Source: a virus
Lineage: Duplodnaviria > Heunggongvirae > Uroviricota > Caudoviricetes
IMG/VR virus record: IMGVR_UViG_3300035208_002255
Coordinates: 1 to 64,000 of that record
Direction: 5' to 3' (one strand)
DNA length: 64,000 bases
Within the stretch, counting starts at the first letter, position 1. Each line of letters opens with the position of its first letter. The translations under genes were made by a program, and so were the position numbers. The notes under the pieces are model-generated. The model searched no databases. It saw only the letters and a list, made by a program, of their open reading frames with translations, and had not been told where the DNA came from. This document shows, one piece after another, positions 51,065 to 51,233 of the stretch.

Positions 51065-51108
51065 ATAAAACGATAACGAAAGAGGCGAGACCCTACATGC
51101 CTTTCGGC

Positions 51109-51204
51109 TCCTCTGCTCTACCATTTGAGCTACTTTCCCATGTTTTAGATTCTTACGAATCCGTGGGAAAGATTAGAATTGAACTAATAACACGAAGATT
51201 TACA
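51109..51204 (-). other. circularly permuted tRNA-like gene (anticodon loop CTGTAAA, GTA): 3' half 51164..51204, hairpin linker, 5' half 51109..51139
   Basis: Minus-strand read: CTGTAAA-TCTTC-GTGTT-ATTAG-TTCAATT-CTAAT-CTTTCCC-A, linker CGGATTCGTAAGAATCTAAAACAT, then GGGAAAG-TA-GCTC-AAATGGTA-GAGC-A-GAGGA. Acceptor pairs 7/7; GAGGA pairs with TCTTC. Confidence 0.5.
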
Positions 51205-51233
51205 GATGAAAGATCTCTAAGCGCGTTACCGAG

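What the first reader, a model, noticed from the sequence alone, without database searches (positions are those of the whole stretch)
51074..51233. Second permuted tRNA-like gene (anticodon loop CTGTAAA) with a different linker hairpin
The same architecture recurs next to tRNA-Asp. Minus-strand 51164..51204 holds the anticodon loop CTGTAAA, the 3' stem strand TCTTC, a T-arm (ATTAG-TTCAATT-CTAAT), and the acceptor 3' strand CTTTCCC. A 24-nt linker (GATTCGTAAGAATC hairpin) follows. Then 51109..51139 holds the acceptor 5' strand GGGAAAG (7/7 pairs), a D-arm (GCTC-AAATGGTA-GAGC) and GAGGA, which pairs with TCTTC. Here the breakpoint would be at position 31/32 rather than 26/27 as at 50791. Variable junction positions are also typical of known permuted tRNAs. 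Anticodon GTA would read Tyr, but the class-I variable arm is unusual for a bacterial Tyr tRNA, so the identity is uncertain.
Basis: seen in the sequence. Interest (0 to 1): 0.8.

Follow-up and report, generated by a model that had tools for sequence, protein, structure and literature searches.

The report
Phage Y RNA with permuted tRNA body
The sequence really does fold as a tRNA whose two halves are in swapped order, but it is most likely one of about eleven copies of a new family of Ro60-associated "Y RNAs" (tRNA mimics) that jumbo phages scatter through their tRNA gene arrays, not a tRNA that reads tyrosine codons.

Summary
Minus strand 51230-51072 folds into a T arm, a 7-bp acceptor stem closed by a 24-nt hairpin linker, a D arm and a 5-bp anticodon-type stem. 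The window has 11 such elements and other jumbo-phage or metagenome contigs have about 60 more. On 33 full-type members, 98% of cells pair and 23 of 29 pairs show double compensatory changes, including all 7 acceptor pairs. The same stem module, without a tRNA body, lies 0.3-2.2 kb downstream and on the same strand of a phage Ro60/Rsr orthologue in 9 of 11 loci (profile vs PDB 2NVO, E 3e-21). That is the genomic signature of bacterial YrlA Y RNAs, and Rfam YrlA is the only non-tRNA model that aligns to the finding (30 bits, below threshold). The best reading is a new, multi-copy, tRNA-array-embedded variant of YrlA-type Y RNA. A decoding permuted tRNA-Tyr is unlikely: the anticodon differs between counterparts (GUA or GAA), the body is class I, and some paralogues have tetraloop-capped acceptors. 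Ro60 was not found in the window phage itself because its contigs end; synteny predicts it 10-16 kb beyond.

The parts
51224..51230 (-). P1 5' strand GGUAACG (outer closing helix)
   Evidence: Pairs with 51072-51078 in the MFE. 4 of 7 P1 pairs covary, 98.6% of cells paired. AACG is invariant.
51218..51223 (-). 5' side of the conserved internal loop, CGCUUA (CG invariant)
   Evidence: CG follows AACG in all copies.
51212..51217 (-). P2 5' strand GAGAUC
   Evidence: Pairs with 51087-51092. 5 of 6 P2 pairs covary.
51205..51211 (-). Family-invariant UUUCAUC motif.
   Evidence: Invariant T21 T22 C23 A24 T25 C26 in A1. Present in all 73 distinct elements by the search definition.
51199..51204 (-). 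UGUAAA, the remainder of the anticodon-loop-like heptamer CUGUAAA. It is single-stranded in the internal loop between P2 and the anticodon-type stem.
   Evidence: Counterparts have UUGUAAA, AUGUAGC, CUGAAAA and UUGAAAA.
51194..51198 (-). Anticodon-type stem, 3' strand UCUUC (tRNA positions 39-43)
   Evidence: Pairs 5/5 with GAGGA 51109-51113.
51189..51193 (-). Variable loop GUGUU (class I)
   Evidence: Identical V loop in L277:2851.
51172..51188 (-). T arm AUUAG-UUCAAUU-CUAAU
   Evidence: 4 of 5 pairs covary.
51164..51171 (-). Acceptor 3' strand CUUUCCC plus discriminator A
   Evidence: 7/7 pairs with 51133-51139. All 7 pairs covary across the family.
51140..51163 (-). 24-nt linker closing the acceptor stem: CGG, hairpin AUUC-GUAA-GAAU, then CUAAAACAU
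   Evidence: It follows the same N73-C-N-N-hairpin-leader rule as real inter-tRNA spacers in this phage.
51133..51139 (-). Acceptor 5' strand GGGAAAG
51114..51132 (-). U8 A9, D arm GCUC-AAAUGGUA-GAGC, A26
   Evidence: Nearly identical to the YrlA consensus D arm.
51109..51113 (-). Anticodon-type stem, 5' strand GAGGA (positions 27-31)
51093..51108 (-). 3' side of the large internal loop: mini-hairpin GCC-GAAA-GGC plus AUGUAG
   Evidence: The same hairpin is in L081:7726, and a related one in L081:8204.
51087..51092 (-). P2 3' strand GGUCUC
51079..51086 (-). 3' side of the conserved internal loop, GCCUCUUU (UUU invariant)
51072..51078 (-). P1 3' strand CGUUAUC. It ends 7 nt before tRNA-Arg(acg) at 51064.
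51233..51308 (-). Upstream tRNA-Asp(gtc). Its 3' end is 2 nt from P1, so it defines the element's 5' end by tRNA 3' processing.
   Evidence: The same Asp-element adjacency occurs in L277, and L004 has the order Asp ... element - Arg(acg).
50990..51064 (-). Downstream tRNA-Arg(acg). RNase P cleavage at its 5' end would define the element's 3' end.
   Evidence: Syntenic in L004.

Best explanation
The finding (51230-51072, minus strand) is a non-coding Y RNA of the YrlA type: a tRNA mimic mounted on a protein-binding stem. It belongs to a previously undescribed family carried by a clade of uncultivated jumbo phages that encode their own Ro60/Rsr orthologue.

Shown here:
- The RNA has two conserved closing helices (P1, P2) with conserved loop nucleotides.
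- On top of them sits a circularly permuted, near-perfect class-I tRNA body whose acceptor stem is closed by a hairpin linker.
- The fold is maintained by compensatory changes in about 70 copies.
- Copies made of the basal module alone lie directly downstream of the phage Ro60 gene.

Inferred:
1. The element is co-transcribed with the tRNA array and released by the enzymes that process its neighbours: 3' processing of tRNA-Asp 2 nt upstream, and RNase P at tRNA-Arg 7 nt downstream.
2. The P1-loop-P2-UUCAUC module is the binding site for the phage Ro60 ring.
3. The tRNA-like domain acts as the effector or stability module. It may recruit tRNA-binding enzymes or an exoribonuclease to Ro60, by analogy with Ro-Y RNA-PNPase in Deinococcus; an RNase T-type exonuclease and a CCA-adding-type enzyme are encoded next to the phage Ro60 gene.
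4. Because the acceptor stem has 7 bp, a discriminator A and a leader-like linker, it may be nicked by RNase P and receive CCA, as Mycobacterium smegmatis YrlA does.

The heptamer CUGUAAA is an evolutionary remnant of the parental (Phe-like) tRNA's anticodon loop. It now lies in the large internal loop typical of Y RNAs and is not used for decoding.
For: Fold and family:
- The MFE gives the cloverleaf closed by P2 and P1, z = -2.78.
- The window has 11 paralogues sharing the flanks.
- 73 distinct complete elements are in the held DNA, with 0 in the reversed-sequence control and 0 among 95 bacterial or archaeal genome hits.
- Model R1 scores the finding at 103.9 bits.
- In A3, 98% of cells pair against 36-47% for slid controls, 23 of 29 pairs show double changes, and 0 of 500 shuffles reach the observed value.

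Link to Y RNAs:
- Rfam YrlA aligns over model positions 1-114, with a near-identical D arm.

Link to Ro60:
- Pfam vWA_Ro60 scores 30-54 bits.
- PDB 2NVO Rsr gives E 1.6e-8 for a single sequence and 3.4e-21 for a profile; RO60 chains 9NEN and 1YVP give 1e-17.
- All 4 family-bearing IMG/VR contigs encode this Ro clade.
- R1 hits lie 0.3-2.2 kb downstream on the same strand in 9 of 11 distinct Ro loci.
- Those copies share P1, the internal loop, P2 and UUCAUC but have small apical hairpins and are free-standing.
- The conserved neighbourhood is PolyA_pol/HD, RNase_T, Ro60.

Purifying selection:
- Counterparts are syntenic in phages with only 35-60% protein identity.

Precedent:
- YrlA RNAs mimic tRNA, lie within 4 kb of Ro60 on the same strand, and occur in 22 phages. 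The 7-bp-acceptor YrlA of M. smegmatis is cut by RNase P and receives CCA (PMC4201824).
Against: - No Ro60 gene lies in the window or within about 8-10 kb either side. Its presence in this phage is only inferred from synteny with L355, L349 and L361.
- The family lacks YrlA's GNCGAAN0-1G motif and scores 30 bits against a gathering score of 69, so Ro binding to this stem is unproven.
- Two Ro loci (L351, L355) have no detectable element.
- Many members keep canonical 7-nt anticodon loops, and their anticodon stems covary. The Y-RNA model does not require this, so it hints at an additional anticodon-dependent function.
- There are no expression data.
Confidence: 0.72

Rival explanations
1. It is a true circularly permuted tRNA gene. 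The precursor is cut in the linker by RNase P and a 3' nuclease. The flanking stem is removed or the ends are joined (31 to 32) by an RNA ligase, giving a functional tRNA with anticodon GUA.
For: - The body has all the canonical tRNA features and is called tRNA-Tyr(gta) by ARAGORN after de-permutation.
- A canonical heptamer (C32 U33 GUA A37 A38) abuts the stem, and GUA also occurs in L242/L340 and L081:7726.
- The linker obeys the same N73-C-N-N-hairpin-leader rule as genuine tRNA spacers.
- P1 juxtaposes a 5'-phosphate and a 3'-OH end, which a ligase could seal (inference).
- Other members have intact, covarying anticodon arms.
Against: - The syntenic counterpart L004:9912 and the close relative L277:2851 have GAA with a different spacing.
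- A class-I, Phe-like body is wrong for bacterial TyrRS identity, and the window already has two normal tRNA-Tyr genes.
- The break position relative to the invariant stem varies (26/27, 31/32, and different offsets), so no single ruler could define the cuts.
- There is no bulge-helix-bulge motif.
- No ligase or splicing endonuclease is in the window +-10 kb or the related loci scanned.
- Paralogues with tetraloop-capped acceptors, or without D or anticodon arms, share the same stem.
- The stem module alone sits next to Ro60.
Confidence: 0.06
2. It is a tRNA decoy. The element presents a tRNA elbow and an anticodon-loop-like sequence to soak up host tRNA-targeting defence nucleases or other tRNA-binding factors, with or without Ro60.
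For: - Canonical anticodon loops are conserved in many members, with an excess of GUN types (Asn GUU x6, Tyr GUA x3).
- Closed acceptor ends make sense for a decoy that need not be charged.
- The elements are embedded in a large phage tRNA array; such arrays are thought to counter tRNA depletion (background knowledge).
Against: - It does not explain the conserved basal stem or its occurrence without a tRNA body beside Ro60.
- In the finding itself the 'loop' is open, part of an internal loop, so it is a poor mimic of an anticodon stem-loop.
- The anticodon types are diverse.
Confidence: 0.1
3. It is a processing or insulator hairpin of the tRNA array. P1 and P2 merely punctuate the polycistronic precursor, the tRNA-like insert is a decaying tandem-duplicated tRNA pseudogene, and the Ro60 adjacency of related hairpins is incidental.
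For: - Every window copy is wedged 2-3 nt after one tRNA and 2-10 nt before the next.
- Minimal copies of 59-84 nt exist.
- Junctions of adjacent normal tRNAs resemble the T-acceptor-spacer-acceptor-D order (partial R1 hits).
Against: - The tRNA body is under strong purifying selection, with compensatory changes in every helix and syntenic counterparts across distant phages.
- Conserved unpaired nucleotides (CG, UUCAUC, UUU) point to specific recognition.
- Ro-adjacent copies are free-standing, not between tRNAs, and adjacency holds in 9 of 11 loci.
Confidence: 0.08

Closest known systems
YrlA (Y RNA-like A; Rfam RF02553), the tRNA-mimicking Y RNAs bound by bacterial and mycobacteriophage Ro60/Rsr (Chen et al. 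2014, PMC4201824)
   Same: - The 5' and 3' ends pair in a long stem interrupted by an internal loop.
- The apical domain has T arm, closed acceptor-like stem, D arm and V loop in exactly this permuted order.
- The D arm is nearly identical (GUAGCUCAAnUGGUAGAGC).
- Family members are encoded within 4 kb downstream of a Ro60 gene on the same strand.
- Smaller paralogues lack the full tRNA domain, like YrlB.
- The 7-bp acceptor variant is a plausible RNase P and CCA-addition substrate.
   Different: - The basal stem has a different conserved sequence (AACGCG ... UUCAUC ... UUUCGUU instead of GNCGAAN0-1G).
- It scores 30 bits against a gathering score of 69.
- There are up to 11 or more copies per genome, most interleaved with tRNA genes tens of kb from Ro60.
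- Many copies retain a complete anticodon arm or an anticodon-loop heptamer.
- The Ro60 partner is a divergent clade, 22-26% identical to actinophage Ro-like proteins.
- The hosts are jumbo phages, not actinophages.
Circularly permuted tRNA genes of Cyanidioschyzon merolae and other algae, and the split tRNAs of Nanoarchaeum
   Same: The 3' half lies upstream of the 5' half, joined by a short linker at the acceptor ends. Break positions vary. Flanking sequences pair with each other.
   Different: - Those have a bulge-helix-bulge motif cut by the splicing endonuclease, are ligated, and give decoding tRNAs.
- Here there is no BHB and no such enzymes are seen.
- The flanks are a conserved autonomous module that also occurs without tRNA parts.
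- The anticodon is not conserved between counterparts.
Two-piece (circularly permuted) tmRNA tRNA-like domain
   Same: The gene order is T arm-acceptor 3' strand, spacer, acceptor 5' strand-D region, with a long helix replacing the anticodon stem. The spacer is processed.
   Different: There is no tag reading frame or pseudoknots. ARAGORN finds no tmRNA. The element is far smaller and has a full D stem.
Deinococcus radiodurans Yrn1 / Ro-Y RNA-PNPase (RYPER) complex
   Same: A Y RNA whose stem binds the Ro ring and whose tRNA-like end contacts an exoribonuclease. The phage Ro60 gene is flanked by an RNase T-type exonuclease gene.
   Different: The partner nuclease and any tethering are untested here. 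The sequences are unrelated.

Membership tests
YrlA / bacterial Y RNA (RF02553) | tRNA-like domain with T arm, closed acceptor-like stem and D arm, in that order | tested here: met
   MFE fold; RNAalifold; covariation in A3; YrlA model aligns 1-114.
YrlA / bacterial Y RNA (RF02553) | 5' and 3' ends form a long stem with an internal loop (the Ro-binding stem) | tested here: met
   P1 and P2 with a conserved asymmetric internal loop; 4 of 7 and 5 of 6 pairs covary.
YrlA / bacterial Y RNA (RF02553) | GNCGAAN0-1G motif near the 5' end (proposed Ro60 contact; PMC4201824) | tested here: not met
   The 5' strand reads R-Y-AACGCG(C) in all copies. No GNCGAA is present.
YrlA / bacterial Y RNA (RF02553) | Encoded within about 4 kb of a Ro60 orthologue, on the same strand | tested here: inconclusive
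   The family meets this in 9 of 11 Ro60 loci. This copy does not: no Ro60 lies in the window or about 8-10 kb beyond. Synteny predicts Ro60 about 55-70 kb away.
YrlA / bacterial Y RNA (RF02553) | Reaches Rfam's gathering score (69 bits) | tested here: not met
   30.3 bits. No YrlA hit at gathering in the window or in 115 kb of family loci.
YrlA / bacterial Y RNA (RF02553) | Physically bound by Ro60/Rsr | not testable with these tools
   Needs RIP or EMSA with the phage Ro60.
Circularly permuted tRNA gene (C. merolae type) | 3' half, linker, 5' half in one unit with complementary acceptor strands | tested here: met
Circularly permuted tRNA gene (C. merolae type) | Bulge-helix-bulge motif formed by leader and trailer at the junction to be ligated | tested here: not met
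   The junction is a large asymmetric internal loop (13 nt against 16 nt containing a mini-hairpin) next to P2. No 3-4-3 BHB appears in the MFE or by inspection.
Circularly permuted tRNA gene (C. merolae type) | Anticodon and identity elements conserved and coherent, as for a functional decoder | tested here: not met
   GUA in the window, L242 and L081:7726, but GAA in the syntenic L004:9912 and in L277:2851. The body is class I for 'Tyr'.
Circularly permuted tRNA gene (C. merolae type) | Circular or ligated RNA intermediate and a mature CCA-ended tRNA | not testable with these tools
   Needs RNA-seq or tRNA-seq.
Canonical tRNA (RF00005 / ARAGORN) | Detected as a colinear cloverleaf | tested here: not met
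   ARAGORN makes no call at 51072-51232. Rfam tRNA gives 12.5 bits against a gathering score of 29.
Permuted (two-piece) tmRNA | Tag reading frame with resume codon, pseudoknots; detected by ARAGORN | tested here: not met
   No tmRNA in the window. The only Rfam tmRNA fragment is the T arm of tRNA-Asp.
Ro60 / TROVE protein (partner encoded by related phages) | Full-length similarity to Ro60/Rsr, including the Ro60 vWA domain | tested here: met
   PF25045 at 30-54 bits. Profile against 2NVO 3.4e-21, 9NEN 1.5e-17, 1YVP 8e-17. The Pfam TROVE model itself is only marginal (E 0.045).

The most novel reading that the evidence does not exclude
The tRNA-array copies may be more than passive Y RNAs. 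They could be genuine circularly permuted tRNAs, the first outside eukaryotes and archaea. RNase P, a 3' nuclease and the CCA-adding enzyme encoded next to Ro60 would convert them into two-piece, CCA-tailed, possibly aminoacylated tRNA-like molecules. These would stay clamped by the P1/P2 stem on the phage Ro60 ring. A panel of anticodon-specific modules (Asn, Tyr, Phe, Met, Val ...) would then give a programmable Ro60 RNP that either surveys or repairs particular tRNAs, or decoys host anticodon nucleases during infection.
Probability: 0.15. Interest if true: 0.85.

Novelty: new variant of a known kind. Interest (0 to 1): 0.62.

Why it matters
Y RNAs and Ro60 are conserved from bacteria to humans, where Ro60 is a lupus and Sjogren autoantigen, yet it remains unclear what the tRNA-like module of bacterial Y RNAs is for.

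This family offers a natural experiment. One Ro60 gene is accompanied by a dozen or more Y-RNA paralogues that share a single stem. Their tRNA-mimic modules range from nothing, through a T arm only, to a complete tRNA body with a recognisable anticodon arm. They are produced from within tRNA operons by the tRNA-processing machinery.

That makes three questions directly testable:
- Does the tRNA module recruit tRNA enzymes or nucleases?
- Does it give substrate specificity?
- Does it only stabilise the RNA?

The work also adds a Ro60 clade and an RNA family that current models (Rfam YrlA, Pfam TROVE) miss. It shows that apparent permuted tRNA genes in phage genomes should be checked for a Y-RNA stem before being annotated as tRNAs.

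Tried and rejected
- Known small ribozymes or other Rfam families in the flanks: Rfam at E <= 10 over 50400-51800 and 51050-51260 gave only tRNA and sub-threshold YrlA. I considered hammerhead, hairpin, twister, pistol and hatchet by eye and dropped them.
- Promoter or terminator reading of the flanks: rejected, because P1 and P2 covary and enclose inserts of up to 200 nt.
- MITE-like mobile element, or two different split tRNAs abutting: rejected, because the acceptor strands inside each unit are complementary and covary, while the 5' half of one element does not match the 3' half of the next.
- Relatives among sequenced isolates: blastn of the region hit only the tRNA-Asp of Agrobacterium phage Atu_ph07, and its tRNA region has no family member.
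- Bacterial and archaeal genomes: 95 pattern hits, none a complete element.
- A conserved neighbouring protein in the tRNA arrays: tblastn of all window ORFs against the family loci found nothing consistent.
- Ro60 of the window's own phage: tblastn against the window and flanking loci was negative. Six look-ups of the closest Ro proteins (P0001, P0003, P0004, P0010, P0015, P0016) came from other samples.
- One look-up failed because the ORF start differed from the called gene.
- Literature searches for permuted tRNAs or Y-RNA arrays in phages found nothing relevant.
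Full report
**1. What is in the sequence.**
- The window is a jumbo-phage-like region with 37 ARAGORN tRNA calls, all on the minus strand. Neither ARAGORN nor the Rfam tRNA model calls anything between tRNA-Asp (51308-51233) and tRNA-Arg(acg) (51064-50990).
The only error is a one-base slip for the C of CTGTAAA.
- RNAfold returns the same structure as both MFE and centroid: T arm, 7-bp acceptor stem closed by a 24-nt linker with its own hairpin, D arm, and a 5-bp stem GAGGA/UCUUC. 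Energy is -44.2 kcal/mol and z = -2.78.
- The body carries the usual tertiary-interaction nucleotides, read directly from the sequence: U8, A14, A15/U48, G18 G19, A21, G46, G53-C61 and U54-A58.
- Joining position 31 to 32 in silico makes ARAGORN call tRNA-Tyr(gta). The hand-fold was therefore correct.

**2.
- The tRNA-like body is enclosed by two further helices. P1 is GGUAACG/CGUUAUC and P2 is GAGAUC/GGUCUC. An internal loop separates them, and an invariant UUUCAUC follows P2.
- The 5' flank motif occurs 6 times within 3 mismatches, against 0.07 expected. The 3' flank motif occurs 3 times, against 0.02 expected.
- With looser patterns the window holds 11 complete elements: 58404, 57029, 55050, 54753, 53359, 51380, 51230, 50909, 44536, 44256 and 43125. 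All are on the minus strand. Each starts 2-3 nt after one tRNA and ends 2-10 nt before the next.
- The inserts vary. Some are a 59-84-nt minimal hairpin. Some have a T arm plus a capped acceptor-like hairpin. Some are complete tRNA bodies.

**3. Relatives and covariation.**
- Pattern scans found the family in four IMG/VR jumbo-phage contigs (208, 219, 336 and 459 kb) and in many metagenome contigs. None of the 95 hits in 185,579 bacterial and archaeal species genomes was a complete element. A reversed-sequence control gave none. The tRNA region of Atu_ph07 lacks the family.
- A 12-sequence alignment gave an RNAalifold structure with P1, T arm, capped acceptor and D arm, with 17 of 24 pairs compensated.
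- A covariance model with P2 added found about 80 full-length hits. The finding scores 103.9 bits.
- On the 33 best hits, 98.0% of cells pair, against 36-47% when partners are slid by 1-3 columns. 23 of 29 pairs have double changes and 0 of 500 shuffles reach the observed values. All 7 acceptor pairs, 5 of 6 P2 pairs, 4 of 7 P1 pairs, 4 of 5 T pairs and 3 of 4 D pairs covary. Caveat: this alignment is fitted to the model.
- Counterparts are syntenic. L004:9912 lies just upstream of tRNA-Arg(acg) and downstream of tRNA-Asp. L277:2851 directly follows tRNA-Asp. These phages share only 35-60% protein identity, so the elements are under selection.

**4. Is there an anticodon?**
- Dissection of the 33 full-type members shows two topologies.
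- In one, an intact anticodon-type hairpin follows UUCAUC, so the break is at 26/27. A conspicuous Asn-like group (CUGUUAA, UUGUUAA, CAGUUAA, UAGUUAA) has stems that covary.
- In the other, which includes the finding, the stem is formed by the segment after the D arm and the segment before the V loop. The break is at 31/32, and the 7-nt loop sequence is attached on one side only.
- In the finding's group the heptamer is CUGUAAA (window), UUGUAAA (L081:7726), AUGUAGC (L242), CUGAAAA (L277:2851) and UUGAAAA (the syntenic L004:9912).
- The bodies are clearly tRNA-derived; the finding resembles tRNA-Phe. However, the anticodon changes between counterparts, and the spacing to the invariant motif varies. 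'Tyr', 'Leu' and 'Ser' anticodons sit on class-I bodies, and the identities duplicate normal tRNAs of the same array.
- Several paralogues close the acceptor stem with GAAA, GUAA or GCAA tetraloops. Those can never be charged.
- No bulge-helix-bulge motif is present. No RNA ligase, RtcB or splicing endonuclease appears in the window, about 8-10 kb beyond either end, or the related loci scanned.
- A decoding permuted tRNA-Tyr is therefore unlikely for this locus.

**5. The link to Ro60.**
- The only non-tRNA Rfam model that aligns is YrlA, the tRNA-mimicking Y RNA of bacterial Ro60. It covers model positions 1-114 at 30.3 bits against a gathering score of 69, with E = 5e-5 in the 211-nt search.
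- YrlA is defined by a 5' GNCGAAN0-1G motif, near-invariant T and D arms, and a position within 4 kb of Ro60 on the same strand. The M. smegmatis YrlA, with a 7-bp acceptor, is cut by RNase P and receives CCA (PMC4201824).
- Scanning ORFs of the related loci found 531-548-aa proteins with the Ro60 vWA domain.
- These proteins match D. radiodurans Rsr (2NVO) over nearly the full length, at E 1.6e-8. A 25-sequence profile matches 2NVO (3.4e-21), RO60 9NEN (1.5e-17) and Ro60 1YVP (8e-17). JGI names several of them Ro ribonucleoprotein.
- The nearest proteins in sequenced phage isolates are actinophage 'Ro-like RNA binding proteins', at 22-26% identity.
- All four family-bearing IMG/VR contigs encode this Ro clade. 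It was found in only one further contig.
- In 9 of 11 distinct Ro loci, the family model hits 0.3-2.2 kb downstream of Ro60 on the same strand: L348, L349, L350, L352, L234, L353, L354, L358 and L361. There is no hit in L351 or L355.
- Those Ro-adjacent copies are 58-118 nt. They are mostly free-standing and share P1, the internal loop, P2 and UUCAUC. Their apical parts are usually small hairpins rather than a tRNA body. The shared stem is therefore the common denominator and the natural candidate for the Ro60-binding site.
- The Ro60 gene sits in a conserved block with a PolyA_pol/HD nucleotidyltransferase (the CCA-adding enzyme family) and an RNase T-type exonuclease.

**6. The gap.**
- No Ro60 gene lies in the window or in about 8-10 kb beyond each end.
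- Both public contigs of this phage end shortly beyond the window's low end.
- Six consecutive genes there are colinear with genes lying 3-6 kb downstream of Ro60 in L355, and L349 and L361 show the same relationship.
- This places the window phage's Ro60 about 10-16 kb beyond window coordinate 1, roughly 55-70 kb from the array. Contig 9095 has the same layout, with Ro60 at 120 kb and the array at 174-203 kb. This is inference, not observation.

**7. Best explanation and mechanism.**
- The finding is a Y RNA of a new YrlA-like family.
- *Shown:* the fold, the family, the covariation, the tRNA origin of the apical domain, and the co-occurrence and adjacency of the family with a phage Ro60 orthologue.
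- *Inferred:* release from the tRNA polycistron by the tRNA 3'-end nuclease and RNase P acting on the neighbouring tRNAs; binding of the stem module by Ro60; the tRNA-like domain acting as an effector or stabiliser that engages tRNA-binding enzymes or an exonuclease, as in the Deinococcus Ro-Y RNA-PNPase complex; and possible RNase P nicking and CCA addition at the linker, as in M. smegmatis.
- Confidence is about 0.7.
- Rivals are a true permuted decoding tRNA (about 0.06), an anticodon-nuclease decoy (about 0.1, and compatible with Ro60), and a mere processing hairpin with a decaying tRNA insert (about 0.08).

**8. Novelty.**
- Y RNAs that mimic tRNA, including in phages, are known.
- What is new is a distinct stem motif that Rfam YrlA misses and a divergent Ro60 clade in uncultivated jumbo phages.
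- Also new are a dozen or so paralogues per genome interleaved with tRNA genes, and apical domains that range up to complete permuted tRNAs with anticodon arms.
- I found no description of this in the searchable literature.
- I rate it a new variant of a known kind, of solid interest to the Ro/Y-RNA and phage-tRNA fields.

Noticed in passing
window 50909-50761 (-), 53359-53211 (-), and 9 further elements (58404, 57029, 55050, 54753, 51380, 44536, 44256, 43125): These are paralogues of the finding. 53359 is an Asn-like permuted tRNA body with an intact anticodon-type hairpin (UAGUUAA). 50909 is Met-like (CUCAUAA). 51380-51314 is a 67-nt minimal copy with no tRNA parts.
   Followed up: yes
window 51386-51403 (-): An orphan duplicate of the 5' flank motif (AACGCGCTTGAAGATCAT) lies directly upstream of the minimal element. 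It looks like a partial tandem duplication.
   Followed up: no
window 31840-31934 (-): ARAGORN calls a 95-nt 'tRNA-Stop' with anticodon TTA (it would read UAA). Rfam tRNA scores only 29.3 bits. It could be a suppressor tRNA or a mis-call.
   Followed up: no
window 47216-47273 (-), 33230-33297 (-), 58407-58486 (-), 56021-56119 (-): The tRNA finders disagree here. There are two Rfam-only tRNA hits (one only 58 nt) and two odd ARAGORN-only calls (tRNA-??? and a 99-nt tRNA-Val aac).
   Followed up: no
window 43255-43959 (+) and 49747-50421 (+): Two HNH endonuclease ORFs lie on the opposite strand inside the tRNA/Y-RNA array. They are homologous to an ORF in the array of contig 9095 (L064:3380-4054).
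   Followed up: partly
window 13421-15412 (-) and 62573-63433 (-) (continues beyond the window; 841 aa in L345): Intein/LAGLIDADG insertions lie inside an ABC-type ATPase and inside a PIN-PhoH protein.
   Followed up: no
all canonical tRNAs of the window array, e.g. 50912, 51233, 53362: None encodes CCA. The discriminator is followed by C-U-A(-A-G) and then immediately by helix P1. The long internal linkers of the permuted bodies obey the same rule (N73-C-N-N-hairpin-leader). This suggests a shared 3'-end processing signal.
   Followed up: partly
L353, L354, L355, L361 and the P0003 locus (Ro60 loci of related phages): A conserved gene block runs IMPDH, Thy1, PolyA_pol/HD nucleotidyltransferase (opposite strand), RNase_T exonuclease, Ro60, then a 213-244-aa ORF of unknown function on the opposite strand, between Ro60 and the Y RNAs.
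   Followed up: partly
L345 1-6000 (about 8 kb beyond the window's high end) and L342 8457-8687: Translation-related genes lie next to the array: PTH2 peptidyl-tRNA hydrolase, a GatB_Yqey domain protein, and an eIF-1a/IF1-like 76-aa protein.
   Followed up: no
L354 719-988 (+): A group I intron (Rfam 68.6 bits) with an HNH ORF interrupts the Thy1 gene of a related phage.
   Followed up: no
window 49637-49768 (-) and 9767-9916 (-): Weak full-length hits of the family model (21 and 20.6 bits). They may be degenerate copies or tRNA-related noise.
   Followed up: no
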